Source of the DNA: an uncultured Chlorobiaceae bacterium
GTDB lineage: Bacteria; Bacteroidota; Chlorobiia; Chlorobiales; Chlorobiaceae
Direction: 5' to 3'
Assembly (NCBI GenBank): GCA_903940125.1
Contig: CAJAJL010000059.1
Coordinates: forward strand, 58,935-122,934
DNA: 64,000 nucleotides
Shown: positions 1 through 13,338 of the stretch, one piece after another
How positions within the stretch are numbered: position 1 is the first letter of the stretch
How the letters are laid out: every line of letters starts with the position of its first letter
Notes under the pieces: model-generated
The model's input: the letters and a program-made list of their open reading frames with translations, nothing else
Database searches by the model: none
What the model was told of the DNA's origin: nothing
Position numbers and translations under genes: made by a program

Positions 1-200
1 AGTAAAATATCATGATCAGGGATGTCACTGGGTTCAATAAGATTAATATCTCCATAAGGTTTTTCTCCAAAATTAGCTTCGTACATTTTTTGGGCTGCAG
101 CGTCCCATTCTGATGAAAAAACATTTATACATCCGTGAGCTTCAAACCCTAATCGTATGCCGCCAACTCCTGCAAATAAATCTATTGTTTTAAATGTCAT
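1..200 (-). CDS. C5-cytosine DNA methyltransferase, N-terminal part (runs off the window edge)
   Basis: Manual translation from ATG at 200: MTFKTIDLFAGVGGIRLGFEAHGCINVFSSEWDAAAQKMYEANFGEKPYGDINLIEPSDIPDHDILL. Contains motif I (FAGxGG), motif II (SEWD) and motif III (GDI). Not in the ORF track. Confidence 0.92.
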   Translation of the reverse strand, partial: MTFKTIDLFAGVGGIRLGFEAHGCINVFSSEWDAAAQKMYEANFGEKPYGDINLIEPSDIPDHDIL

Positions 201-369: not shown

Positions 370-1710
370 TCAATTAATTTGGATACTTAACATTCCTGGT
401 CTAGACGCGTAGTTGCTTGTTGATGATATTAAATTCATAAGCATTTGCTCTCGTATTCTATAGGTAGGCGTAAAATTACTTGCATTATTTTCTAATACAG
501 TATAAGGGAAGCGTTGATGTACATATAGGTACATTGGTACTTGAGCGTCTTCTAATAAAAGTAAAGGAGATTTCCAAATCGCAGGAGAGGTGTTCTTGCC
601 TTTTTTAGTACTGTTTTCAGGTATTTCTGCCGCAAGAAGGTAAGATATAGGACCTGTATTATTTTGAGCATAGTCGCAAGCAGCACCAATTCTCACAAGC
701 TTTAATTTGCACTCTTTAATCAATTCGCTTTTAATTTTAAACTCGCTTTCAAATAAATTATTCTTTGTTATTCCAAATATATTCTGAAAGTCTACATCAT
801 TGTCCTTGAAAGGACATTCCACTACAGCACCCCAGTCGGTTGGGAGAATCGCCTCAAAGTCCTTATTTGCAATATGAAGCATCCTATTTATCTGTGCTGC
901 ATTATGAAGATTAACGGTTGGTGGTGTCGAATCTGAATGTTTAGTAATGGCTTTTTCCCAGAGTTCTCTCACACTTTTTTCTACTGGTTGATTAATGATT
1001 CGATCATTCAAGATCGGTGCTAAAGCTCTATTTAGTGCTGCTCGTGAATCTGCTTTTATATTGGTAGGGCCAACCGCCTCTCTTGCCAACTTGCTTAGTA
1101 ATCCGTCTATGCTAGGAGAAAAAGAGGTGGAGTTTTTATTTTCGAGAGGTATCAAGGACATTAATGATACCAGGGTGTCCCCAGCAGCTTTTAAAACATC
1201 CAGCTCCCAGTTAACCAATGCTGCGAGTTGGGGGTTGGTCGTTATAGCTTCATTTACAGCGTTTTTTAGAGCCTCCGTATTTGTTGGAATCCCATTGTCT
1301 ACATCAATAAAACTTGTCTTGTCAAGGCTTAGGACAGTCAATGGGTGTGTATAGGGCTTTTTTTTATCTAGATTATCATCTAGGTATTTATGTAGATCGT
1401 TGGCGTGTTGTGGGTGTTCAGTCCAAATTATCAGAATAAATGGTCCCCCATTTTCATGAATATTCTCTTCGAGAATATTAGCAATTAACGCAAAGTGGCG
1501 TTTTTCATCAGTACTAACCTGACCATCGATTAGGTGGAGGTCAATGAATAAGCATCGAACACCTCTAAACAAATTTGCATCAGGATCGTTTTCCTGGTTA
1601 TAATGCAATCCGACACAAGATGTGCCTAGCTGTTGAAAGGTATTCATAATAGCTCTTAAATGATCCTCTTTGTCATCAATAACAATGTAGCGTGGTGCTA
1701 TAAAAATCAT
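370..1710 (-). CDS. Receiver (response-regulator-like) domain protein with a long C-terminal domain of unknown function
   Basis: N-terminus has the acidic pocket (VIDD), a candidate phospho-Asp (LFIDLHL), the conserved T (IIWT) and a K (LDK). Start overlaps the upstream kinase stop (ATGA). Confidence 0.75.
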   Translation of the reverse strand: MIFIAPRYIVIDDKEDHLRAIMNTFQQLGTSCVGLHYNQENDPDANLFRGVRCLFIDLHLIDGQVSTDEKRHFALIANILEENIHENGGPFILIIWTEHPQHANDLHKYLDDNLDKKKPYTHPLTVLSLDKTSFIDVDNGIPTNTEALKNAVNEAITTNPQLAALVNWELDVLKAAGDTLVSLMSLIPLENKNSTSFSPSIDGLLSKLAREAVGPTNIKADSRAALNRALAPILNDRIINQPVEKSVRELWEKAITKHSDSTPPTVNLHNAAQINRMLHIANKDFEAILPTDWGAVVECPFKDNDVDFQNIFGITKNNLFESEFKIKSELIKECKLKLVRIGAACDYAQNNTGPISYLLAAEIPENSTKKGKNTSPAIWKSPLLLLEDAQVPMYLYVHQRFPYTVLENNASNFTPTYRIREQMLMNLISSTSNYASRPGMLSIQIN

Positions 1711-3869
1711 TCTTTCCCCCCCTTGTTAAAGATCAATGCCAAAACAGCCCCATCAAAGCCGGGCGGCACTTTTGCTTCATCGGCATCCGGGAATCCCAAC
1801 CGGCCATTGCTTAATTCCATAACTAAATTTGTATAGTATAGACCAATACCCATACCATCAGGTCGCCGGCTGAAGAATGGTCTGGTGATTCTGTCTGGGT
1901 TATCCTGGAAACCGGGCCCATTATCAGCAATGATTATTGCCGGTCCTTCAGCAAAGTCAGGTTCAATATTTAGGTATATTTGCCTTGGTGAGTCTAATTT
2001 GTTGGGCCATCGAACCTGTAGCCAATAGAAAGCATTGTCTAAGATATTATTCAGAGCTCCCAACATAAGCCCAAACGCAAAATTTTGGTTTATATCAGGG
2101 ACGTTTTCCTCTAGGGCAGGGCAAAGTAGTTTGACTTCATGGTTGCGGAAACGAACCCTGTTAATATCCCGCGCTCGTTTAAGTAGTTGTTTAAGGCTAT
2201 TTTCTTTCTGTTCGCCCTTGCGTAGTAGCTCGGTAAATCCATCAAGTACGCGGATTAATTCTTTTGCCTGAATCTGAACAAGCTCCATACTACCTCCAGC
2301 CACAATTGCATCATGTAATACTCGTACACCATGTTCTATCTCGTGGAAAACTATTGCCAGCCCCATTCCGGAAAGACCCGCCCGTAGCATAGTATCTCGC
2401 ATCTCGGTGTAGTTTCTTTCAACTTTGTCAATCAGTGGATCCAGTTCTTTTGAGATTTTATGTTTAGCTGCAACTTGACGCAAGGTCTGGAGTGGTTTGC
2501 TGATTTTCTCAACCTCTGGATCATGTCCTTTATCAGTAAGTTTTCGGATATTATCTTTATCGATTTTGCGTTCTATTTCTAAAATAGAAAGTGCTCCAAG
2601 CACGATTTCACGAAATCGAGTATAGGCATCATTTTCAACAAAGCCTTCTCTATTGGTTTTTTCTTTTAACTTAGAGCTTTCTTCAAGCTTTAGATCTACA
2701 GCTCCAAATATTATATTGCGGCTCACATTTCTCGTTGGGGTATTTACTCGGCGTAAATCAAGCCCAAGCCAATCATCTCCACGCTCACCGTAGTTATATA
2801 CTCGGATATAATCCCTGTATACTCGGACACCTCCGTTTTCATCCAATACATTCTCTACAAGTTGACTGTTTCCAAATTGGCTCAGAATGGTCCTATCCCT
2901 ATCAAATACATAAAACTCGCCGGTTATTAATCCTATACCTTCTGCATGAGCAGAGTCTGCAATAATTTTTTTGGATTTATTGCTTTTCCCTCGATCCGTA
3001 CCAAACTCATCTATGTCACGCTCAGGTGCGATCAATAGAGATTGAGAGTCTTTGCTTAGGTAACGAGGTGATAGTTTTATGCCCGAAATGCCTCTAAACT
3101 CATATGTCCAATCAAACTTTCCATTCTCATATGAAAACTTGAAATACCATGGGGCTCGCTGAAGAAGAATACTAATATCAGGTATATCTGAAATCCAATC
3201 AGGATGCTCAGGGACGTGCAATGTGGCTTCAAATCGGTCAGAGCGGTTTTCAAAAGGTGAGGCTATGGAGGTGATCTGCCGCTGAAGTCTGCGAATTTCA
3301 CTACGGGTCAAATTCACTTCTCGTAAGCTTGAAATTCTTAGTTTTGTTCCGGTTGTATTTCCAATAAAAACTTGTGGTGTTCTTTCTTCAATATTTACCT
3401 CAGCTTCTGATAAAAACTCTTTATCAATTAATTCAGCCCAATTAATGAACAATACGCATTCCAAACTATTCTCAGCCCTTGTAACCAGTTCTATTTTATC
3501 TCCAAGCTTATGTACTGCGAAGCGCCCTACTCCTTTTTCACCAAGTGGTAAGCGATGCAATAATGTTCGTCTCAGTTCTTTTTTTTGGAGTTCCCGGTGG
3601 TCATGTGCTGGTACAAGCCATATATCTTTAATTGTGTCGAGCGTCATGCCCACGCCATTATCTTCAACCAAGATTGATGGGCTATTAGTATCAATGCCTT
3701 CCAGTGTTACTTTCACCTTTTCAGCATCAGCATCGTAAGCGTTTTTTACAAGTTCAAAGATTGCCAATCGAGGACTACTGATGAGTTGATCTCCAAGTAA
3801 CTGAAGCAATCGTGCCCTTGGTCGGAATGGTAAAGTAAGTTTGTTGATTTTTTGCATTTTTGATGCCAA
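1707..3869 (-). CDS. MORC-like GHKL ATPase fused to a C-terminal histidine kinase
   Basis: N-terminal GHKL motifs ELVKNAYDA, EDNGVGM, GEKGVGRFA, GTKL. C-terminal H-box (VFHEI), N-box (NILDNA), G1 (DNGPGF) and F/G2 (FFSRRPDGMGIGL). Confidence 0.85.
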   Translation of the reverse strand: MASKMQKINKLTLPFRPRARLLQLLGDQLISSPRLAIFELVKNAYDADAEKVKVTLEGIDTNSPSILVEDNGVGMTLDTIKDIWLVPAHDHRELQKKELRRTLLHRLPLGEKGVGRFAVHKLGDKIELVTRAENSLECVLFINWAELIDKEFLSEAEVNIEERTPQVFIGNTTGTKLRISSLREVNLTRSEIRRLQRQITSIASPFENRSDRFEATLHVPEHPDWISDIPDISILLQRAPWYFKFSYENGKFDWTYEFRGISGIKLSPRYLSKDSQSLLIAPERDIDEFGTDRGKSNKSKKIIADSAHAEGIGLITGEFYVFDRDRTILSQFGNSQLVENVLDENGGVRVYRDYIRVYNYGERGDDWLGLDLRRVNTPTRNVSRNIIFGAVDLKLEESSKLKEKTNREGFVENDAYTRFREIVLGALSILEIERKIDKDNIRKLTDKGHDPEVEKISKPLQTLRQVAAKHKISKELDPLIDKVERNYTEMRDTMLRAGLSGMGLAIVFHEIEHGVRVLHDAIVAGGSMELVQIQAKELIRVLDGFTELLRKGEQKENSLKQLLKRARDINRVRFRNHEVKLLCPALEENVPDINQNFAFGLMLGALNNILDNAFYWLQVRWPNKLDSPRQIYLNIEPDFAEGPAIIIADNGPGFQDNPDRITRPFFSRRPDGMGIGLYYTNLVMELSNGRLGFPDADEAKVPPGFDGAVLALIFNKGGKE

Positions 3870-3929: not shown

Positions 3930-5102
3930 TTAGTATTTGTTGTTTAACCAATGTGTTATCTGATCAAGATTGCCAAAATTTTTGATTAGCAACAATGCAA
4001 TATCGGCTGCACTTAAAATAACAATGGGGTGCTCATCTTTTTTTAGCTCTTTATAGGCCTGTGTAGATACATAAGATGTTGTAACGAGGACACCAAATAG
4101 CCTGTGTCGGAGTCGAGATATGAGTCGAGCTACCTCCTTGACACCAACGCCATTGTTAATTGCATAACATTTTACTTCCATTGCAAAGTCAACATCTATG
4201 CCACCTGGGCCTTGACAGATTTTATATTTGCCTGTGGCGTCTCTTCCTCCATCTCGCCACGGTTTTGTAATTTCAATGCTATGAACATTGGGCATGGCGT
4301 AGGTCAAAATATCGGCAGCAATGGGCTCAAATCCAGTAGGGTTTAATTTGTATGTGTTGTAAATCAGTTCAATTACAGTTCTTTCTTCCTTTGTGAGATC
4401 AGTTTGTTGCTTTGGCGATCGAATCTTTATAGATGATTCAGTTAGTAGAGGGGTGTATTTTCGATTCTGAACCCACTTAAGCCAAATGCTTGGAGCATGA
4501 ATGGATTTAACTGAATTTCCAATTAAAGCATCATGAATCCATTGTCTCTTGATCACAGGAGCATCAAGGATCGTAAATACGGATCTATAGTTTTGGAAGC
4601 GAATTCCTTCAGTATTCATTCTCCAGACAGCTGTAAGATCTTCATCACTACTCATTCCTTTAGCACTAGGCACAGCAATGCCAAGGAAGCGTGTGTCACG
4701 GTAAGATCCAGTCTTACCAAAAAGCAAAATAATCGGAAAGTTATCTATTGTTTGACTTTTTTGATGGGCAAAATCAAACAAATTTCTTAAAATATTATTG
4801 CAATCTCTTTTAGTATCATGTAAATCACTTGGTTCTCTTTTATCGCCATAATATATGAACAAGCCATTTTCTTTGTCGAGATGATCCGGCCAGTTTTGGT
4901 CAGAGAACCCTGTTTGTAGAACGAGAATTTTAAGTGATTCGACTTCGGTTCTAGGTGATCCTAGGCACCGAAATCCTGCCCCATTATCTACGTTCAGAAG
5001 TTTAGGCAGAGGATCGTCGGAGTAATTTCCATTCCTTGACCCTCCGTATACGCAGTCAACATGCAAATCCTGTTCTGAAAGATTGTCTTTGATTATATTC
5101 AC
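3930..5102 (-). CDS. AspBHI/MspJI-like modification-dependent restriction endonuclease (SRA-like N-domain plus Mrr-type catalytic domain)
   Basis: N-terminal motifs DCVYGG, DDPLPKLL, WPDHLD, YYGD, FQNYR; C-terminal DGGRDA...MEVKCY (D..ExK). Start moved from 5174 to GTG at 5102, which overlaps the MTase TGA and gives 390 aa. Confidence 0.82.
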   Translation of the reverse strand: MNIIKDNLSEQDLHVDCVYGGSRNGNYSDDPLPKLLNVDNGAGFRCLGSPRTEVESLKILVLQTGFSDQNWPDHLDKENGLFIYYGDKREPSDLHDTKRDCNNILRNLFDFAHQKSQTIDNFPIILLFGKTGSYRDTRFLGIAVPSAKGMSSDEDLTAVWRMNTEGIRFQNYRSVFTILDAPVIKRQWIHDALIGNSVKSIHAPSIWLKWVQNRKYTPLLTESSIKIRSPKQQTDLTKEERTVIELIYNTYKLNPTGFEPIAADILTYAMPNVHSIEITKPWRDGGRDATGKYKICQGPGGIDVDFAMEVKCYAINNGVGVKEVARLISRLRHRLFGVLVTTSYVSTQAYKELKKDEHPIVILSAADIALLLIKNFGNLDQITHWLNNKY

Positions 5103-6082
5103 GATACCATTTGAAGCTCTAACTCCATTATTTGATTTATCTTCGCAAAGATAACTTCCATCACTGGTGAGCAAACACCATTACCACAAAGTTTCACTTT
5201 GTCTCTGCGGGTGCCAATTGGCAGCAAGTGATTGCAACCTGTACCCATTGCTTTCATTAGCTCGGATGGTTGTAACATTCTAAGGTTAGGTCGATTATCA
5301 AGCCAAGTCACAAGACCGAATCTGTCAAGTGTTGTAACTGTTCTGAGGGGGTCCTCAAGCCTTTGCCAACCGCCCGCGTAATCTGACCCATAATAGACTA
5401 TCAAGAAATCTTTATTAGGCCCCAGTTCAGCTATAGCCCTCTCTGCTCGTTGAATAGTTGCCTTGGCTCTGGTTTCAGCATAGAGTGGGTTGGATTTGTA
5501 TTGTTTGGTCTGGTCAATGATTGAACTCGCACTAAGGCGTTGGTTGTCGCGAAGGGAGTAAAAATCGGCTTCTGTTATTCTGGTTTGTAGCCTATCGCAT
5601 ATCAGAAACATACGCTTTCTTGCTTGTGGGGTACCAAAATCTGCAGCATTAAGTAGTAAGGGATTAACTTTATAGCCTGCAGATTCAATCCCTTTTATCA
5701 GGTCGCTGTGTCTATTCCATTGTTTCATCCTTGGCACATTTTCTACTATAACCCACCTTGGGGACATTGCGAAAATCCAAGGAATGATGCCTAAAGCAGA
5801 TGCTTTACTTGTTTCGCAGCCGGGTCTTGAGCCTCTCGCTATAGAATGAGATGTACATTCGGGCGAAGTTAATAAAACGTCTGGCTGATACTTTAGAGCC
5901 AAACTATACGGATCAACTACTTCTATTTTAGCGTTTATGACTTCTGTATTTGGAAAATTGGCCTTATAGGTTTCTGTTGCTATATCCCAAGCATCAACAG
6001 CCAGTAAAGGTGATGCTCCCGCGTTCACGGCACCTCGAGCACCAAATCCTCCGCCACAGAAGAGGTCAACAAATTTTAACAT
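5099..6082 (-). CDS. C5-cytosine DNA methyltransferase
   Basis: Motif I (LFCGGG), IV (SPECT), VI (ENV), VIII (QARKR), IX (RMLQPSE), X (GNGV). Confidence 0.9.
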   Translation of the reverse strand: MLKFVDLFCGGGFGARGAVNAGASPLLAVDAWDIATETYKANFPNTEVINAKIEVVDPYSLALKYQPDVLLTSPECTSHSIARGSRPGCETSKASALGIIPWIFAMSPRWVIVENVPRMKQWNRHSDLIKGIESAGYKVNPLLLNAADFGTPQARKRMFLICDRLQTRITEADFYSLRDNQRLSASSIIDQTKQYKSNPLYAETRAKATIQRAERAIAELGPNKDFLIVYYGSDYAGGWQRLEDPLRTVTTLDRFGLVTWLDNRPNLRMLQPSELMKAMGTGCNHLLPIGTRRDKVKLCGNGVCSPVMEVIFAKINQIMELELQMVS

Positions 6083-6577: not shown

Positions 6578-7021
6578 TCATGTCTCCTCGATAAATGGCT
6601 CATTGCCGCGAAGCCATATTGCAAAACGCTTGGTGATATCTCCAATATCTCTACTATTGTGTGACATAGCGCATTCCCATACGATTCCTACCCGCCATCC
6701 GCTTTCGAGCAAGGCTTGCGTCACTTTTTTGTCATTGTTTCGATTTCGATTAATTTTCTCTTTCCAGTAGTCAACCCGAGTTTTGGGACTTTTGAAAAGT
6801 AGGCAGTTGTGTCCATGCCAAAAGCATCCGTGTACAAATATTACTGCACGATATTTTGGTAAAACTATATCAGGCTTGCCAGGGAGGTCTTTTCTATGAA
6901 TCCGGAATCGGAAGCCTGCAGAGTGCAAAGCTTTTCTCATCAAGAGCTCTGGTTTTGTATTCTTGCCATGAATGCTTGCCATGATCCGACTTCGTGTTTC
7001 CGTACTTACGGTATCTACCAT
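6578..7021 (-). CDS. vsr: Very short patch repair endonuclease
   Basis: MVDTVSTETRSRIMASIHGKNTKPE, LPGKPDIV, FVHGCFWHGH, GWRVGIVWEC. Start reassigned to ATG at 7021. Confidence 0.93.
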   Translation of the reverse strand: MVDTVSTETRSRIMASIHGKNTKPELLMRKALHSAGFRFRIHRKDLPGKPDIVLPKYRAVIFVHGCFWHGHNCLLFKSPKTRVDYWKEKINRNRNNDKKVTQALLESGWRVGIVWECAMSHNSRDIGDITKRFAIWLRGNEPFIEET

Positions 7022-7202
7022 TTTTGAGGTTTGATGTCGTTTAGCTTCAAGTTTATTGGAATAAATGATTTGATTAGACTTAAGCGGTTTAATGCAGCTT
7101 ATACAATGAATCATTTACTGAAGCAAAATGAATAGAATATGAAAATTCCTTATCTTATTTTAAAAATTATAGCTATCAAAAAACTGTATGTAAGCACGGG
7201 GC

Positions 7203-7505
7203 ATGTTTATGCGGCAAGATTATAAACAGTGGCTAATCGATAAGCAGTATTCAGCCAATACGCGTATTACTCAGATGCACAGAGTAAAGAAGGTGGAAGA
7301 GGCCTATGGGAATCTTGATGAGCATTTTGCTAATGGAACTTATCAAGACGTATTAAATGCCTTGCTATATACCGCTGATGATGAAAAAGCTAACAAGCCA
7401 AATTCCTCAAAAATACAATTTCATGGGAATGTTAGGAATAATCTTCAATCTTACAAGTATGCTGCGGCACGTTATGTCTCTTTCCTTAAAAAGAAGAGGA
7501 TATAG
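7203..7505 (+). CDS. Hypothetical protein resembling the stand-alone N-terminal domain of NucS/DUF91-type endonuclease proteins
   Basis: 100-aa ORF. The pattern YKQWL...HRV.KVEEAYGNLDEHF...NPS/SSKIQF.GNVRNNLQSYK.A..RY is recalled from such proteins (recall only, not searched). Confidence 0.45.
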   Translation: MFMRQDYKQWLIDKQYSANTRITQMHRVKKVEEAYGNLDEHFANGTYQDVLNALLYTADDEKANKPNSSKIQFHGNVRNNLQSYKYAAARYVSFLKKKRI

Positions 7506-7975: not shown

Positions 7976-8428
7976 TTGAGACTATCCAGAATACATTCCG
8001 GCCCCGTGCTGGATTTCTACACCCCGGACTTTACAACGCAGCTTGAGCTGCCGCTTGCCGCCGGTGCCATCTCCGCAGGCTTCCCATCTCCCGCCGAAGA
8101 GTACATCGAGCTTGCCATAGACCTGAACAAAGAGCTGATCAAGCACCCGGCCGCCACCTTCTACGCCAGAGTAAAAGGCAGCTCAATGATTGATGCCGGC
8201 ATTGCTGATGGCGACCTGCTCATCATTGACAAGGCGCTTGAGCCGAAAGACGGGGATATTGCTGTCTGCTTCATTGACGGAGAGTTCACGCTGAAGCGCC
8301 TGGCTTTGAAAGAGGACGGCCTCTACCTCATGCCTGCCAATGCCGAATTCAAGCCGATCAGGATCACCGAAGAGAATGATTTCCTCGTCTGGGGAATGCT
8401 TGCCTATATTGTCCACAAGCCGAGATAA
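7976..8428 (+). CDS. umuD: UmuD-like S24 autopeptidase (Pol V accessory subunit)
   Basis: Cleavage site SAGFPSPA, catalytic Ser (GSSM) and Lys (FTLKR); directly upstream of umuC. Confidence 0.92.
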   Translation: MRLSRIHSGPVLDFYTPDFTTQLELPLAAGAISAGFPSPAEEYIELAIDLNKELIKHPAATFYARVKGSSMIDAGIADGDLLIIDKALEPKDGDIAVCFIDGEFTLKRLALKEDGLYLMPANAEFKPIRITEENDFLVWGMLAYIVHKPR

Positions 8429-8451
8429 CTCCGCATCCGGAGGCTTTTCAA

Positions 8452-9726
8452 ATGTTCGCCCTTGTCGACTGCAATAACTTCTACGCCTCCTGCGAGCGTG
8501 CTTTCAAGCCCGCTCTGCGCCTGCGCCCTGTCGTCGTGCTTTCAAACAATGACGGCTGCATCATCGCCCGCTCTGAAGAAGCCAAGACGCTCGGCATCCA
8601 GATGGGCACACCAGAGTTCAAATGCCGCTTGCTGCTAAAACAGCATGATGTTGCAGTCTTCTCCTCGAACTATGCCCTTTACGGCGATATGTCCTCACGG
8701 GTAATGGCAACGCTGGCCGCTCTTGCTCCTGAAATCGAAGTCTATTCCATCGATGAAGCGTTTCTGGATATGTCGAGCTTCAGCCGCTTCGACCTGCCAG
8801 ATTATGCCAGGCAAATGCGCCGCACGGTCCGCCTGCATACCGGCATTCCGGTCTGCGTCGGCATCGCGCCAACCAAAACGCTTGCCAAGATTGCCAACCG
8901 ACTGGCAAAAAAGAATCCGCACTATCAGGGCGTCTGCGTGCTCGCAACCGCTGAGGAGATCCAGGCCGCACTTCTGCACACCAAGGTCGAGGATATCTGG
9001 GGCATCGGGCGGCAGTGGAGCAAGCTGCTGCAGGCAAAGCGCATAGAGAGCGCCGCTGACTTGGCGGCAGCGCCTGCGGCATGGGTGCGCAAGCACCTGC
9101 ACGTTGTTGGCGCCAGGATACAAGCAGAGCTGCAGGGCAAATCATGCCTGCCGATGGAGCTGGTGCGGCCCGCAAAGCAAAGCATCTGCACATCGCGTTC
9201 TTTTGGTCGCAACGTCAGCACGCTGGCCGAGCTGCAGCAGGCAGTGGCAACATTCGCCAGCAAATGCGCTGTAAAGCTGCGCAAAGAGGATTCGCTTGCT
9301 TCCCTGCTGACGGTCTTCATTGCGACCAGCCCGTTCGATGAATCAAGCGACCGCTATTGGGGAACGCGCACGGCAGCCCTGCCGCATCCGACGCAGGATT
9401 CCATAGCAATCCTGAAGGCAGCAGAGACTATTCTTGACGGTATATTTCGTGATGGAAATGTCTATAAAAAGGCTGGCGTTATGGTGAGCGGCATTGTGCC
9501 AAGAGCATCATGCAGCACAACGCTTTCGCTCTTTGCGGAAGAAGCGCCAGCGGCAAATGCGCGCGATGCAAAGCTCATGCAGGCCATGGATGCCATCAAC
9601 CAGCGGTATGGCAGCGGCACGGTGCGGCTGGCAGCGGAGAATGCCGAAAGCTGGAAGCCGCATCAGGAGCGGCTATCGCCACGTTATAGCACGCGGTTGG
9701 ATGAGATTATTGAGGTGCGGGTGTGA
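8452..9726 (+). CDS. umuC: Y-family DNA polymerase V subunit UmuC
   Basis: MFALVDCNNFYASCE, SNNDGC, FSSNYALYGDMSSR, YSIDEAFL, C-terminal LSPRYST. Confidence 0.95.
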   Translation: MFALVDCNNFYASCERAFKPALRLRPVVVLSNNDGCIIARSEEAKTLGIQMGTPEFKCRLLLKQHDVAVFSSNYALYGDMSSRVMATLAALAPEIEVYSIDEAFLDMSSFSRFDLPDYARQMRRTVRLHTGIPVCVGIAPTKTLAKIANRLAKKNPHYQGVCVLATAEEIQAALLHTKVEDIWGIGRQWSKLLQAKRIESAADLAAAPAAWVRKHLHVVGARIQAELQGKSCLPMELVRPAKQSICTSRSFGRNVSTLAELQQAVATFASKCAVKLRKEDSLASLLTVFIATSPFDESSDRYWGTRTAALPHPTQDSIAILKAAETILDGIFRDGNVYKKAGVMVSGIVPRASCSTTLSLFAEEAPAANARDAKLMQAMDAINQRYGSGTVRLAAENAESWKPHQERLSPRYSTRLDEIIEVRV

Positions 9727-10596: not shown

Positions 10597-13338
10597 TTAA
10601 TGTCGTTTAATAGGGATGGTATAAGTGCACACATAATCGCCACTGCGTTTGTAGTTGGTGCAACCCCAGAATTTACCGTATGGCCCGCTACGCTCCACCA
10701 TCGCACCACCACAATTTAGGCAGATTGGTATTGATGCACCACAAACCGGGTTGACACAGGTACGAAATCGTCCATTACTCTTCATGAGACCTCCGCATTG
10801 CGGACAGGGCTTTTCCATATGCTTACAGTATGGAAAGCAACTACAGCCCACGAACGCGCCATATTGGCCAGATTTTGGTAAAAGGGCACCACGACCACAG
10901 TCAGGGCATACGACGTGAGGAATATCCGCACACATAAGTCCCTCTGCGATCTCGTCTTTACAAACAGGATAAGCCGAGTCAACATCAAGCAACTCTTGTA
11001 CGAAGGATGAAGCTTCCGTTGGGTTGTACACCAAGTAGACGCGGTGGCGTGCACGAGTAAGTGCAACATAGAAGAGCCGACGCTCCTCAGCCAGCGGATA
11101 AGATTCTTGTTTAGGAAGAAGCCATTCTAAAATTGGATCTGTCGGCTTTTCACTTGGAAAGCCATTTTTGCCTTGCCCAAGGCCGAGAATCACAACAAAG
11201 TCGGCCTCTTTGCCTTTAGCAGAGTGCACTGTCATAAATTCAATGGTCAGAGGAGGGTATTGCGACTTCAATCGACGTTTAGCTACGGGTTGAAGCCACT
11301 CTTTAATGGTGAAGTTGTACCTTCCCAGTACCAGGACAATAGACCCTTCTCTCGAGTTGTTACATCTTCTACTGACGATTGCATCGAGAGCCATGCGGAG
11401 ACCGTTTTCATCCCGAACAGCACGGATCATTGACAATGCAGGTTGATCAACATAAACCTTTGACTTAATAGTCTTAGTAATCTGCGCAGGATTTTTCAAG
11501 ACAAATTCGGACGAAACTTTGCCAATCATGTTGTTGAACCTGAAAGTCTGTTCGAGGGATGTGGTTGCGGTTGCACCGAAGTAGCTTGAAAAGTCTCGAG
11601 TGTAAGCAATGTCGCTGCCAGTGAACCTGTAGATCGACTGCCAATCATCACCAACAGCAAATAGCCCCGATTCTATGCCTTGCTGACCCAAAGCTTTGAG
11701 CAATCGCGCCCTTGATTTATTAATGTCCTGAAACTCGTCTACCAGTATCTGTATGTAAGGTGATTGAAAAGCTCCTGCCTCGACATAGTCGGACGCCTTT
11801 CGAATCATGTCAGCGAAATCGATTTGACCCGAGACTGAAAGTTCAGTCTGATAAGCATCAAGAATTGGTGTGAAAAGAGATAATAATAAACAGAGACGTG
11901 ATGAATCTATATCGGATTGTGCCTTTTTGTTTAGTTCAGACAACGAATAATCGGACTCTTTGAAGAGTTTTAAGAAATCAGATAGCAGAATTGCAAACTC
12001 ATTGACTTGTGATGAGGCGCGAAGCTCATCCAGCATCTCCAGGCTGGAACGAGGGATCAACTCAACACCATTAGCTTTTAAAGCTTCTGCAAGGCGGGAT
12101 TCTAACAACCCCTCTCGTTTCAGAAACGAATATGTTTCGATGAGATTAGTCCCGTGAAGTTTGTGGAGATCCCGCTTCCAGTCGATACCACTCAGGTATT
12201 TATTTTGGTCAAAATGCGAAGGAGGGTTACCCGACTTATCCAATGCAAAATGCTCAATGTAGACATCATAATCAGGCAAATAAAAGTCCGGCTTGTACTG
12301 CCTATAGTCAGGTCCTGCAGTGTCGACTTTGTAGGCATGCTCATATATGTAGGCTACGCTATTGGCGTTGAGGAAGTTAGCAATGACAATCTCTTCGAAG
12401 CTTTTGACAACTTCGTTCTTTAACGTTCTCAGTTCATTAATACTCACATATTCATTGTATTCCCTAATTGAACTGAAATCGAAGGGGTTCCTGTAAGTGA
12501 ATTTTTCACTACCACAGTAGCGAATAATCAGCTCTCGGTAGTCGCGGTCATTGCAGCACTTCTTCAGCTGCTCATCAATGAACTTTAAAAATACCTGATT
12601 GTCATTAACCATGGGATGGATATCAGGACGACGTCCCTCAACAGCCCCGATTATTTCGAGGCCAAGCGCATGGAACGTTTTGACAGTGGGTGAGCCCTTC
12701 ACCTCCAAGCTTTTGAGACGTGAGTCTTGACGTTCCTGCATCTCTTTGGCCGCTTTTTGCGCGTATGCTAGCATAAGCAACTCATGAGGCTTGGCTCTAT
12801 TTGATGCGACGAGATAGCCGGCTCGACCAATCATAGTACTTGTTTTTCCTGTGCCGGCTCCAGCAAGTACTAAGTTACAATCTTCATCAACCACGCACGA
12901 ACGACGCTGGGAGTTGGTTAAAGGCTGGCTCTCAATAGAGTCGAAGAATGACCCATATTCAACTAGCTCTGATAAAACAAAAGCATCATTGGCAGCTGCA
13001 ACCAACTCCTCAGACCTTGCCATGAATGTAACAAGGGCCTGCACCTTTTTAAGTTGCTCTTGAGATGCTGAATAACGCCAACCAAATATTTTTGTGGATT
13101 TAACGACATCTTTTGCGGATATCAAAAGACGAAGGCGCTGTGAGTTCCGAGCATATGACTTGCGTGACAGTAAGTCCTCTAACGCAGCCGAGACATCATC
13201 AAGGTGCTTAGCAATTGGAGCAATACGAGGGGATAAGCGCTTATTTGCAGAGTACCAAAGGAACACGGCACACGCGAGCAATATGAAAATGATGGGTATA
13301 AGCAACCCCGAGGATAGACCCAGGTTCAGTATATTCAC
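10597..13338 (-). CDS. helD: DNA helicase IV (HelD)/UvrD-family SF1 helicase with N-terminal hydrophobic helix and C-terminal topoisomerase-type Zn ribbons
   Basis: Walker A (AGAGTGKT), DEFQD, GDDWQSIYRF, TVHSAKGKE, EERRLFYVALTRAR, KPDFYL insert; CPDCG...GCS and CLNCG...GCTNY ribbons. Confidence 0.88.
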   Translation of the reverse strand: MNILNLGLSSGLLIPIIFILLACAVFLWYSANKRLSPRIAPIAKHLDDVSAALEDLLSRKSYARNSQRLRLLISAKDVVKSTKIFGWRYSASQEQLKKVQALVTFMARSEELVAAANDAFVLSELVEYGSFFDSIESQPLTNSQRRSCVVDEDCNLVLAGAGTGKTSTMIGRAGYLVASNRAKPHELLMLAYAQKAAKEMQERQDSRLKSLEVKGSPTVKTFHALGLEIIGAVEGRRPDIHPMVNDNQVFLKFIDEQLKKCCNDRDYRELIIRYCGSEKFTYRNPFDFSSIREYNEYVSINELRTLKNEVVKSFEEIVIANFLNANSVAYIYEHAYKVDTAGPDYRQYKPDFYLPDYDVYIEHFALDKSGNPPSHFDQNKYLSGIDWKRDLHKLHGTNLIETYSFLKREGLLESRLAEALKANGVELIPRSSLEMLDELRASSQVNEFAILLSDFLKLFKESDYSLSELNKKAQSDIDSSRLCLLLSLFTPILDAYQTELSVSGQIDFADMIRKASDYVEAGAFQSPYIQILVDEFQDINKSRARLLKALGQQGIESGLFAVGDDWQSIYRFTGSDIAYTRDFSSYFGATATTSLEQTFRFNNMIGKVSSEFVLKNPAQITKTIKSKVYVDQPALSMIRAVRDENGLRMALDAIVSRRCNNSREGSIVLVLGRYNFTIKEWLQPVAKRRLKSQYPPLTIEFMTVHSAKGKEADFVVILGLGQGKNGFPSEKPTDPILEWLLPKQESYPLAEERRLFYVALTRARHRVYLVYNPTEASSFVQELLDVDSAYPVCKDEIAEGLMCADIPHVVCPDCGRGALLPKSGQYGAFVGCSCFPYCKHMEKPCPQCGGLMKSNGRFRTCVNPVCGASIPICLNCGGAMVERSGPYGKFWGCTNYKRSGDYVCTYTIPIKRH

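What the first reader, a model, noticed from the sequence alone, without database searches (positions are those of the whole stretch)
3930..6082. 5mC methyltransferase translationally coupled to a 5mC-dependent restriction endonuclease
Seen: the MTase TGA overlaps the endonuclease GTG (5099-5102). Both have intact-looking catalytic motifs (SPEC/ENV; D..ExK), and a second C5 MTase and Vsr lie in the same locus. Established: AspBHI/MspJI-family enzymes cut DNA carrying 5mC and normally need no cognate MTase. Inference: co-encoding a 5mC writer with a 5mC-dependent cutter is paradoxical. Either the specificities do not overlap, the SRA-like domain has switched preference, or the pair is a conditional mark-then-cut or abortive module switched on during infection.
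Basis: partly seen in the sequence, partly recalled or inferred. Interest (0 to 1): 0.72.

Follow-up and report, generated by a model that had tools for sequence, protein, structure and literature searches.

The report
Methyltransferase coupled to methyl-dependent nuclease
A Chlorobium defence island really does encode a cytosine methyltransferase whose stop codon overlaps the start of an AspBHI-type nuclease that cuts methylated DNA; the pairing is strongly conserved, but it was first reported in 2010 and its purpose is still untested.

Summary
On the minus strand, a 327-aa C5 methyltransferase (M1, 6082..5099) ends in a TGA that overlaps the GTG start of a 390-aa nuclease (R, 5102..3930).

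R is a full-length relative of AspBHI (PDB 4OC8, E 1e-98). Its 5mC-pocket and catalytic residues are all kept.

The pair sits in a horizontally acquired island: Vsr, M1, R, a GHKL/histidine-kinase-like ATPase, a receiver-like protein, then a complete HaeII-type R-M system.

Among 32 close R relatives from several phyla, 31 have an M1-type gene directly upstream, mostly with overlapping or abutting stop and start codons. The two proteins co-diverge (r = 0.89).

M1 also occurs without R, in an M1, ATPase, partner, Vsr module. So R looks like an add-on to that module.

The "paradox" is not new. Zheng et al. 2010 reported that about half of MspJI-family genes lie beside 5mC methyltransferase and vsr genes.

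My best reading (about 0.5) is a two-armed defence. M1 methylates the host constitutively. R tolerates M1 and HaeII-type marks and cuts DNA that carries other 5mC or 5hmC patterns. A mark-then-cut mechanism is not excluded but is disfavoured.

Earlier scan notes describe the same theme on other DNA.

The parts
6578..7114 (-). Vsr, the very-short-patch T:G mismatch endonuclease (178 aa). It lies 495 nt upstream of M1 on the same strand.
   Evidence: PF03852 2.4e-33; TIGR00632 7.2e-47, above its cut-off; PADLOC Vsr 2.9e-36. A Vsr lies within 3 kb of R in 44 of 80 related loci.
5099..6082 (-). M1, a C5 cytosine methyltransferase (327 aa) of a divergent family whose motif IV reads S-P-E-C.
   Evidence: PF00145 positions 1-323 of 324, E 2.5e-34. 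Best PADLOC model is DrmMII PDLC02654, 1.3e-68. Motifs I, IV, VI, VIII, IX and X are at least 90% conserved in 41 family members and invariant in alignment A3.
3930..5102 (-). R, an AspBHI-type 5mC-dependent restriction endonuclease (390 aa). It has an SRA-like N-terminal domain and an Mrr-type PD-(D/E)xK C-terminal domain. Its GTG start overlaps the M1 stop (GTGA at 5102..5099).
   Evidence: PF18062 1.8e-53 and PF04471 2e-10. PDB 4OC8 E 1.2e-98 over residues 6-387. Pocket residues W71-P72-D73 and Y84-Y85-G86-D87 and catalytic residues D288, E309 and K311 are invariant in A1. Loop-B3 reads D39-N40 where AspBHI has S41-R42.
1707..3857 (-). Double GHKL protein (716 aa from the ATG at 3857; an in-frame TTG lies at 3869). 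It has an N-terminal MORC/MutL-like HATPase_c_3 domain and a C-terminal histidine-kinase-like HATPase_c domain. It starts 72 nt after R.
   Evidence: PF13589 1.1e-17 and PF02518 7.7e-14, two stretches. NCBIfam histidine-kinase hits at residues 527-714, and a weak N-terminal match to the BbrUII/HgiDII restriction enzyme family. Gene calls of 716 aa. A homologue lies within 6 kb of R in 20 of 32 close loci.
370..1710 (-). Receiver-like protein (446 aa) with a conserved C-terminal domain of unknown fold. Its ATG overlaps the stop of the ATPase gene by 4 nt.
   Evidence: No Pfam or NCBIfam family. AF2 model pLDDT 84. Foldseek hits are response-regulator receiver domains covering only the N-terminal ~150 residues (E 4e-4 to 1e-2, probability 0.99-1.0). 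Invariant D12, D57 and K131.
1..200 (-). N-terminal part of the second C5 methyltransferase (M2, 322 aa, continuing beyond the window start). It is followed outside the window by a HaeII-family endonuclease and a split IS110 transposase.
   Evidence: Genome search for PF00145 finds exactly two copies. M2 PF00145 6.5e-94. Downstream ORF PF09554 RE_HaeII 1.6e-156, positions 1-338 of 338. IS110 domains lie in two adjacent ORFs.

Best explanation
This is a composite, horizontally mobile defence island with two complementary arms.

M1 is an active C5 methyltransferase that methylates the host chromosome constitutively at its own sequence. Vsr repairs the T:G mismatches that this 5mC produces. M1 is primarily the methyltransferase of a conserved M1 / GHKL-kinase-like ATPase / receiver-like protein / Vsr module.

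R is a true AspBHI-type enzyme. It flips 5mC (or 5hmC) into an SRA-like pocket and cuts at a fixed distance with its Mrr-type domain. Its flanking-sequence preference excludes the sites written by M1 and by the neighbouring HaeII-type methyltransferase. R therefore spares the host. It cuts DNA that carries other cytosine-methylation patterns: phages with 5mC or 5hmC genomes, DNA last replicated in differently methylating hosts, and incoming 5mC methyltransferase genes.

M1 and R are co-transcribed and translationally coupled, and they travel between phyla as one unit.

Shown here: the domain identities, the conserved residues, the coupling, the conservation and the co-divergence. Inferred: M1 activity, compatibility of the two specificities, and the biological targets.
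For: R identity:
- R is a full-length AspBHI relative with the pocket and catalytic residues intact.
- The residue roles come from PMC3946040 and PMC4231741.

M1 looks functional:
- All catalytic and AdoMet motifs are at least 90% conserved across 41 homologues from several phyla.
- M1 is more conserved than R (60-79% against 51-68% identity to the window proteins).

Standing host methylation:
- Vsr lies within 3 kb of R in 44 of 80 loci, including M1-R modules that lack the ATPase pair.

M1 does not depend on R:
- M1 with Vsr, ATPase and partner occurs without R.
- Where only one of the two genes looks broken, it is usually R. R is split, deleted or a remnant while M1 is intact in L060, L069, L073 and L090. 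The reverse holds only in L027.

Conservation of the pair:
- 31 of 32 close relatives have M1 directly upstream on the same strand.
- The junction is -14 to +1 nt in 24 of 28 pairs.
- M1 and R distances correlate (r = 0.89; Mantel 0 of 2000).
- 42 of 51 M1 genes at least 56% identical to the window's have an R in the fetched locus.

Compatibility in vivo:
- The same intact island, with zero substitutions in M1 and R, is seen in all seven contigs fetched with DNA, out of at least 18 metagenome contigs that carry M1.

Precedent:
- LpnPI lies beside an active GGNCC methyltransferase and is argued to spare those sites.
- E. coli Mrr, McrA and McrBC tolerate Dcm (PMC2938202; PMC3874153).
Against: - No methylation or cleavage data exist for this pair, and the specificities of M1 and R are unknown.
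- The one methyltransferase tested from such a pair, M.MspJI, was inactive in E. coli.
- M1 has Glu where the canonical motif IV has Pro immediately before the catalytic Cys.
- Compatible specificities explain why the pair can coexist. They do not explain why the two genes are so tightly coupled and co-inherited.
- A 2025 review states that no in vivo action of any MspJI-family enzyme has been examined (PMC12707154).
Confidence: 0.5

Rival explanations
1. M1 is silent or catalytically dead in vivo, so there is no conflict. The linkage would then be an evolutionary leftover of a methyltransferase-containing operon that a modification-dependent nuclease gene entered.
For: - M.MspJI showed no activity in E. 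coli, and Zheng et al. proposed exactly this decay scenario (PMC2938202; PMC3874153).
- M1 motif IV is P-E-C rather than P-C.
- Earlier scan notes describe wrecked methyltransferase operons invaded by such nucleases (e1-2631366, e1-3091331).
Against: - Every methyltransferase motif is at least 90% conserved over about 40% sequence divergence, and S-P-E-C is itself invariant.
- M1 is more conserved than R.
- Vsr stays linked.
- M1 is retained where R is lost.
- Translational coupling is conserved.
Confidence: 0.15
2. Conditional mark-then-cut (abortive infection). The kinase-like ATPase and the receiver-like protein sense infection and switch M1 on, or relax its specificity. M1 then creates R substrates on phage and host DNA, and R destroys them.
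For: - A sensor-less kinase-like/receiver-like pair sits in the same operon direction in the window and near R in 20 of 32 close loci.
- Tight M1-R coupling would suit a writer-reader effector pair.
- M.MspJI was inactive when expressed alone.
Against: - M1-R(-Vsr) modules with full 10-kb flanks lack the pair entirely. In L009, L016, L022 and L026 no ATPase hit is found at all. In L005, L012, L015 and L017 only a distant, shorter GHKL ORF is found.
- Vsr has no role unless the host carries 5mC long term.
- The M1 / ATPase / partner / Vsr module exists without R, so R is not its obligatory effector.
- There is no direct evidence of regulation.
Confidence: 0.1
3. Epigenetic exclusion by a selfish element. 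The main selected role of R is to kill cells that acquire competing 5mC methyltransferases or R-M systems. This would stabilise the resident M1/Vsr element, with no particular role against phages.
For: - Methyl-specific enzymes cause damage when a foreign methyltransferase enters, which is how Mrr and Mcr were discovered (PMC2938202 introduction; PMC3874153).
- vsr-like genes can stabilise solitary C5 methyltransferase genes (PMC12907096).
- M1 and R are inherited as a unit across phyla.
Against: - A second 5mC R-M system (HaeII type) is tolerated right beside the pair.
- This reading is not exclusive of the best explanation, because the molecular mechanism is the same.
Confidence: 0.12
4. This clade of R has switched to cutting unmethylated sites and is blocked by M1 methylation. 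That would make it an ordinary Type II-like R-M pair built on an SRA-like reader.
For: - The gene order (methyltransferase, then endonuclease) and the stop/start overlap are typical of classical R-M operons.
- In MspJI, discrimination of 5mC from C rests on backbone contacts (PMC4231741), so sequence alone cannot prove dependence on methylation.
- Loop-B3 differs from AspBHI (D-N instead of S-R).
Against: - R aligns with biochemically 5mC-dependent AspBHI over its full length.
- The pocket residues match AspBHI, including the position equivalent to MspJI G106/D117.
- R relatives also occur with no methyltransferase within 10 kb (11 of 80), which would be lethal for a methylation-blocked enzyme.
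Confidence: 0.05

Closest known systems
MspJI locus of Mycobacterium sp. JLS (M.MspJIP, V.MspJIP, MspJI; Zheng et al. 2010, PMC2938202)
   Same: An SRA-like/Mrr-cat 5mC-dependent endonuclease is encoded beside a C5 methyltransferase and a vsr gene. The authors stated the same paradox and noted the association for about half of the subfamily.
   Different: MspJI matches R only weakly (PDB 4F0P, E 1.7e-14). Its gene order and orientation differ (R, Vsr, then methyltransferase). M.MspJI was inactive. Here the methyltransferase belongs to a distinct, highly conserved family, is translationally coupled to R, and is embedded with a GHKL-kinase-like/receiver-like pair.
AspBHI of Azoarcus sp. BH72 (PDB 4OC8; recognises YS(5mC)NS, PMC3946040)
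   Same: Full-length alignment (E 1e-98). Same two-domain architecture. The equivalents of D71 and Y82 (pocket) and of D282, E303 and K305 (D-X20-E-x-K) are identical.
   Different: Loop-B3, which in AspBHI carries S41 and the essential R42 and is modelled in the minor groove 5' of the 5mC, reads D-N here and in most of this clade. The flanking-sequence preference therefore cannot be assumed to be YSCNS. I could not retrieve AspBHI's own gene context.
C5-methyltransferase / paraMORC GHKL ATPase / receiver-like / Vsr modules (Iyer et al. 2008, PMC2292703; the 2021 Genome Biol Evol paper, PMC8011034)
   Same: A GHKL (HATPase_c_3) protein with a kinase-like part and a coupled receiver-like protein, with a C5 methyltransferase upstream and a Vsr beside them. 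The same four-gene order is seen in R-less relatives of M1.
   Different: Neither paper mentions Mrr, and PMC8011034 does not mention AspBHI (term searches). The nucleases PMC8011034 reports in these neighbourhoods are others, such as HNH_2, EcoRII-C and MvaI_BcnI. The window proteins do not hit the Pfam models named there (PF19191, PF19192) at E <= 5. In the window, R is inserted between the methyltransferase and the ATPase gene.
Vsr, Dcm, HATPase_c_3, Z1, DUF4420, AIPR clusters with an adjacent SRA-like/Mrr nuclease
   Same: More distant R relatives (41-48% identity), mostly alphaproteobacterial, sit next to exactly this cluster (the arrangement recurs in at least 9 loci). The theme is the same: a 5mC-writing, ATPase-driven system plus a 5mC-dependent nuclease.
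   Different: The methyltransferase family is different (about 500 aa). Z1, DUF4420 and AIPR replace the kinase-like/receiver-like pair. R is not coupled to the methyltransferase and lies about 7 kb from it.
Co-resident modification-based and modification-dependent systems: E. coli K-12 Dcm/Vsr with McrA, McrBC and Mrr; LpnPI beside the GGNCC R-M
   Same: A host 5mC pattern is tolerated because the methyl-dependent enzyme needs a flanking context that the resident methyltransferase does not create (PMC3874153; PMC2938202).
   Different: In those cases the genes are not translationally coupled or co-inherited as a two-gene unit.

Membership tests
MspJI/AspBHI family of modification-dependent (Type IIM/IV) endonucleases | N-terminal SRA-like DNA-recognition domain (Pfam RE_AspBHI_N) | tested here: met
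   PF18062 E 1.8e-53, residues 25-215, profile positions 2-185 of 185. PDB 4OC8 and 4RZL (LpnPI N-domain) E 1e-98 and 3e-43.
MspJI/AspBHI family of modification-dependent (Type IIM/IV) endonucleases | C-terminal Mrr-type PD-(D/E)xK domain with D...(E/Q)xK | tested here: met
   PF04471 E 2e-10. D288, E309 and K311 are invariant in A1 and align with AspBHI D282, E303 and K305.
MspJI/AspBHI family of modification-dependent (Type IIM/IV) endonucleases | 5mC pocket residues (Trp/Asp of loop 4-5; the Tyr-x-Gly-Asp strand) | tested here: met
   W71-P72-D73 and Y84-Y85-G86-D87 are invariant in A1. WPD is kept in almost all, and the [YF]-G-D strand in all, of the 71 full-length relatives aligned. Residue roles from PMC3946040 and PMC4231741.
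MspJI/AspBHI family of modification-dependent (Type IIM/IV) endonucleases | Cleavage depends on 5mC/5hmC and occurs at a fixed distance 3' of the modified base; homotetramer | not testable with these tools
   Needs purified enzyme and methylated substrates.
C5 cytosine DNA methyltransferases (PF00145) | Conserved motifs I (FxGxG), IV (PC), VI (ENV), VIII (QxRxR), IX, X (GN) | tested here: met
   All are present and at least 90% conserved in the family. Motif IV is S-P-E-C, so the catalytic Cys is kept but Glu stands where Pro normally precedes it.
C5 cytosine DNA methyltransferases (PF00145) | Demonstrated methyl transfer to a defined DNA sequence | not testable with these tools
   No characterised close homologue was found. 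The best PDB hits are DNMT2 and M.HhaI at E 3e-12 to 3e-10, over the N-terminal half only.
Classical Type II R-M pair (endonuclease blocked by the cognate methylation) | The endonuclease cuts the unmethylated site that the linked methyltransferase protects | tested here: inconclusive
The dependence itself was not measured.
[quoted passage not shown] | GHKL HATPase_c_3 protein with a kinase-like part, coupled to a receiver-like protein, with a C5 methyltransferase and a Vsr adjacent | tested here: met
   PF13589 plus a second HATPase_c. ATGA coupling to the 446-aa protein. Receiver fold. Methyltransferase and Vsr adjacent.
[quoted passage not shown] | Match to the Pfam models PF19191 (HEF_HK) and PF19192 (Response_reg_2) | tested here: not met
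   Neither model was reported at E <= 5 for the window proteins, nor at E <= 0.01 for five partner proteins from R-less loci.
HaeII-type Type II R-M (the neighbouring system) | Full-length RE_HaeII endonuclease beside a C5 methyltransferase | tested here: met
   PF09554 positions 1-338 of 338, E 1.6e-156. PF00145 positions 1-324 of 324, E 6.5e-94. The two genes overlap by 4 nt.

The most novel reading that the evidence does not exclude
M1 and R form a writer-reader suicide pair. Host DNA is normally spared because M1 is held inactive or narrowly specific. The sensor-less kinase-like GHKL ATPase and its receiver-like partner detect infection and unleash M1, so that R then shreds newly methylated phage and host DNA. 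This would be a methylation-triggered abortive-infection mechanism, with no described precedent.
Probability: 0.08. Interest if true: 0.85.

Novelty: new member of a known kind. Interest (0 to 1): 0.42.

Why it matters
It has been unexplained since 2010 why methyl-dependent nucleases of the MspJI/AspBHI family so often sit beside cytosine methyltransferase and vsr genes. A 2025 review notes that no member of the family has been tested in vivo.

This locus is a compact, fully intact example that is maintained in a natural population. The survey adds three points:
- In the clade of R's close relatives, the partner is one specific, highly conserved methyltransferase family.
- That methyltransferase is translationally coupled to the nuclease and co-diverges with it.
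- The same methyltransferase family otherwise belongs to a GHKL-ATPase / receiver-like / Vsr module.

This gives a defined four- or five-gene construct with which to test whether the arrangement is simple complementary defence, epigenetic exclusion, or something more unusual.

Tried and rejected
- **Single-protein pattern scan.** A scan of genome contigs with R alone found no relatives. An alignment-based scan was needed.
- **Recognition loops against methyltransferase type.** I tried to link R's recognition loops to the type of linked methyltransferase. Loop-B3 motifs do sort with methyltransferase type and orientation, but they also follow phylogeny. I do not count this as evidence of co-adaptation.
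- **M1 specificity.** I could not infer it. There is no close solved or named homologue, and NCBIfam gives only the generic dcm superfamily below its cut-off.
- **AspBHI's own gene context.** I could not obtain it. The Zheng 2010 supplement is not held and PMC3131316 is not held.
- **The 446-aa protein.** Its C-terminal domain gave no Pfam hit at E <= 5 and no fold match beyond the receiver domain. I therefore reject the idea that it is a recognisable nuclease serving as M1's classical partner.
- **Plasmid search with R.** It gave only 11 distant hits and nothing informative.
- **Population variation.** There is none: M1 and R have zero substitutions in seven contigs, so no selection test was possible.
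- **Controller protein.** No controller (C) protein ORF is evident between vsr and M1.
- **Promoter and terminator scans.** They were not above the shuffled expectation.
Full report
**1. What is in the sequence**

Both genes lie on the minus strand. M1 runs from 6082 to 5099 (327 aa) and R from 5102 to 3930 (390 aa). The plus-strand bases 5099-5102 read tcac, which is GTGA on the coding strand. The TGA stop of M1 and the GTG start of R therefore overlap by 4 nt.

M1 matches the C5 methyltransferase model over its whole length (PF00145, E 2.5e-34). R matches RE_AspBHI_N (1.8e-53) and Mrr_cat (2e-10). It also matches a PADLOC 'methyl-directed Type II' model at 1.5e-132 and the crystal-structure sequence of AspBHI (4OC8) at E 1.2e-98 over residues 6-387.

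The GTG start is the right one. Homologues are 385-391 aa long and cover 97-100% of the query. Independent gene calls on other assemblies give a 390-aa product with the same 4-nt overlap.

**2. Are the two proteins intact?**

For R, I mapped the alignment to AspBHI onto the published residue roles:
- AspBHI D71 and Y82 bind the flipped 5mC, and D282, E303 and K305 form the D-X20-E-A-K nuclease site (PMC3946040).
- In MspJI, the equivalent Trp and Tyr sandwich the base, and the methyl group touches backbone atoms next to the conserved Gly-Asp (PMC4231741).
- In R, these positions are W71-P72-D73, Y84-Y85-G86-D87, D288, E309 and K311. All are invariant in an 18-sequence alignment and nearly so in 71 relatives.

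The one clear difference from AspBHI is loop-B3. AspBHI has S41 and the essential R42 there, modelled 5' of the 5mC in the minor groove. R, and nearly all of its clade, has D-N. The flanking-sequence preference of R therefore need not be AspBHI's YS(5mC)NS.

For M1, an alignment of 41 family members shows at least 90% conservation of motifs I (DLFCGGG), IV (SPECTSHS), VI (ENV), VIII (QxRKR), IX and X (GNGVC) (invariant columns). Motif IV is unusual because Glu, not Pro, precedes the catalytic Cys. This is a fixed trait of the family and not a lesion.

**3. The surroundings**

The genes form one co-directional block on the minus strand:
- Vsr (7114..6578).
- M1, after a 495-nt gap.
- R.
- After a 72-nt gap, a 716-aa protein. 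Its N-terminus is a MORC/MutL-like HATPase_c_3 domain and its C-terminus is a histidine-kinase-like HATPase_c domain.
- A 446-aa protein, overlapping the previous gene by 4 nt. It has no Pfam family.
- After 169 nt, a second C5 methyltransferase that crosses the window start. It is coupled to a full-length HaeII-family endonuclease (PF09554, 1.6e-156), followed by a split IS110 transposase.

An AlphaFold model of the 446-aa protein (pLDDT 84) matches response-regulator receiver domains with its N-terminal ~150 residues only. The rest has no recognisable fold match.

The genome has only these two PF00145 genes. The host is a Chlorobium: neighbouring housekeeping proteins cluster with Chlorobium/Chlorobiaceae entries. 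M1 was found in none of the 137 other genomes of the class. R's nearest relatives are 67-72% identical and, where named, gammaproteobacterial. The island was therefore acquired horizontally.

At least 18 metagenome contigs carry M1. The seven fetched with DNA show the identical island, with no substitution in M1 or R.

**4. Is the pair conserved?**

An alignment-based scan returned 80 loci with R relatives, from Pseudomonadota (gamma-, beta- and alphaproteobacterial lineages), Acidobacteriota, Verrucomicrobiota, Kapabacteria, Actinomycetota, Bacillota and one haloarchaeon. I called ORFs in these loci and searched them with profiles built from the window proteins.

| Feature | Count |
|---|---|
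| C5 methyltransferase within 3 kb of R | 57 of 80 |
| C5 methyltransferase within the 10-kb flanks | 69 of 80 |
| Vsr within 3 kb of R | 44 of 80 |

For scale, the window's own 3-Mb genome has two such methyltransferase genes.

In the 32 loci of the close-relative clade of R (mostly at least 50% identical to it):
- 31 have an M1-type gene immediately upstream on the same strand.
- The distance from the M1 stop to the R start is -14 to +1 nt in 24 of 28 pairs. Nine have a 4-nt overlap and eight have the stop directly followed by the start.
- Pairwise distances of M1 and of R correlate at r = 0.89 across 37 pairs, and no permutation out of 2000 reached that value. Because the hosts span phyla, this indicates transfer as a unit.

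I also asked the reverse question: how often does M1 have an R?
- In a sample of 401 genomes of the class of L014's genome (a gammaproteobacterium), M1 occurred in 5. Of the four independent ones, one has R, one has a 70-aa remnant of R between M1 and Vsr, and two have M1 and Vsr without R, one of these also with the ATPase.
- In 80 metagenome loci fetched with an M1 alignment, 42 of 51 M1 genes at least 56% identical to the window's have an R in the locus. It is either co-directional or convergent and abutting. None of the 11 genes at 50% identity or less has one.
- The R-less loci show a four-gene module: M1, the double-GHKL ATPase, a ~380-aa partner, and Vsr.

So R looks like an addition to that module. 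In the window, it sits between M1 and the ATPase gene.

More distant R relatives, mostly alphaproteobacterial, sit beside a different 5mC-writing system: Vsr, Dcm, HATPase_c_3, Z1, DUF4420 and AIPR. The general rule appears to be that AspBHI-like nucleases accompany ATPase-containing systems that write 5mC.

**5. What is already known**

Zheng et al. 2010 (PMC2938202) described MspJI beside a C5 methyltransferase and a vsr gene and called the combination unexpected. They reported that about half of the subfamily neighbours a 5mC methyltransferase. They found M.MspJI inactive. They argued that LpnPI must spare the GGNCC sites of its active neighbour. They concluded that the association 'calls for further investigation'.

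Loenen and Raleigh (PMC3874153) treat the MspJI methyltransferase as inactive. They set out the compatibility principle: Dcm is tolerated by McrA, McrBC and Mrr.

A 2025 review states that no in vivo action of MspJI-family enzymes has been explored (PMC12707154).

By contrast, a survey of PUA-superfamily (SRA, EVE, PUA) nuclease fusions found a DNA methyltransferase ORF within 3 kb of fewer than 6% (PMC6765204). The linkage seen here is therefore specific to this family.

The GHKL ATPase, C5 methyltransferase and Vsr neighbourhoods were described by Iyer et al. 2008 (PMC2292703). The kinase-like/receiver-like version was described in PMC8011034. Neither mentions Mrr, and PMC8011034 does not mention AspBHI.

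Earlier notes of this scan report the same theme on other DNA (e1-4336920, e1-2631366).

**6. How it most likely works**

Three observations argue that M1 methylates the host constitutively and that R tolerates those marks:
- Vsr is useful only where 5mC persists in the chromosome, and it stays linked even in M1-R modules that lack the ATPase pair.
- M1 is under stronger conservation than R. M1 survives where R is split, deleted or reduced to a remnant (L060, L069, L073, L090), against one case of the reverse (L027). Some of these breaks may be assembly errors in MAGs.
- The intact island persists unchanged in a natural population.

R must also tolerate the HaeII-type marks made next door. As an inference only: if that enzyme methylates the inner C of RGCGCY, the purine at position -2 would already exempt the site from an AspBHI-like YS(5mC)NS rule.

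I therefore read the locus as a two-armed defence. One arm is a 5mC-writing module, whose own restriction activity, if any, is unknown. The other arm is a 5mC/5hmC-dependent nuclease that catches DNA carrying foreign cytosine modifications. My confidence is about 0.5.

This reading explains why the two genes can coexist. It does not explain why they are so tightly coupled. That is the real remaining question.

**7. Rivals**

- A silent M1 (0.15) is contradicted by motif conservation and Vsr linkage.
- Conditional mark-then-cut controlled by the kinase-like pair (0.10) is contradicted by pair-less M1-R-Vsr modules and by Vsr itself, but it is not excluded.
- An exclusion role against competing methyltransferases (0.12) shares the same mechanism as the best explanation.
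- A switch to methylation-blocked cutting (0.05) is contradicted by the unchanged pocket and by solitary relatives.

**8. Verdict**

It is a new member of a kind of arrangement first reported in 2010, not a new kind of system. The survey adds a defined methyltransferase family, conserved translational coupling, co-divergence, and the link to the GHKL/receiver-like/Vsr module.

No expression or methylome check was possible.

Noticed in passing
window 370-1710 (-), compared with contigs: The 446-aa receiver-like gene is called as two pieces (312 + 108 aa) in one metagenome assembly of the same island, and as a shortened 299-aa product near the contig end in another. M1 and R are intact in both. 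This could be a real disruption or an assembly error.
   Followed up: no
L003 11428-12848 (-), just outside the window start: An IS110-family transposase is split into two overlapping ORFs, DEDD_Tnp_IS110 and Transposase_20. It lies directly after the HaeII-type R-M system and marks the edge of the island. Further out there is a P22-coat-like gene and an HTH/DUF6173 gene.
   Followed up: partly
window 7976-9726 (+) and 10597-13338 (-): A UmuD/UmuC-like pair (Peptidase_S24; IMS, IMS_C, DUF4113) and a 913-aa UvrD-like helicase with topoisomerase-type zinc ribbons lie immediately beyond Vsr. They are present in all assemblies of the island.
   Followed up: no
window 7203-7505 (+): A 100-aa ORF with no family match lies between Vsr and the UmuD-like gene. 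It is called in every assembly of the island.
   Followed up: no
L090 10420-10710 (G418:C90): In this genome from the gammaproteobacterial sample, only a ~70-90-aa N-terminal remnant of the AspBHI-like gene is left between an intact M1 and Vsr. This is an example of loss of R with retention of M1.
   Followed up: partly
L046 11167-20624: In Sphingomonas sp. 1F27F7B (L046), the AspBHI-like gene abuts a six-gene cluster: AIPR, DUF4420 (PD-(D/E)xK), Z1, HATPase_c_3, C5 methyltransferase and Vsr. The same spacing recurs in at least 9 loci.
   Followed up: partly
L136, L143, L146, L147, L148, L153: A second arrangement of the same pair: M1 and the AspBHI-like gene are convergent, with their stop codons abutting at a zero-nt gap, instead of co-directional.
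   Followed up: no
window 1707-3857 (-), residues 22-203: The N-terminal GHKL domain of the ATPase gives a partial match (86.7 bits, well below the 550-bit cut-off) to the NCBIfam model for BbrUII/HgiDII-family restriction enzymes. GHKL domains of this type therefore also occur in proven restriction enzymes.
   Followed up: no
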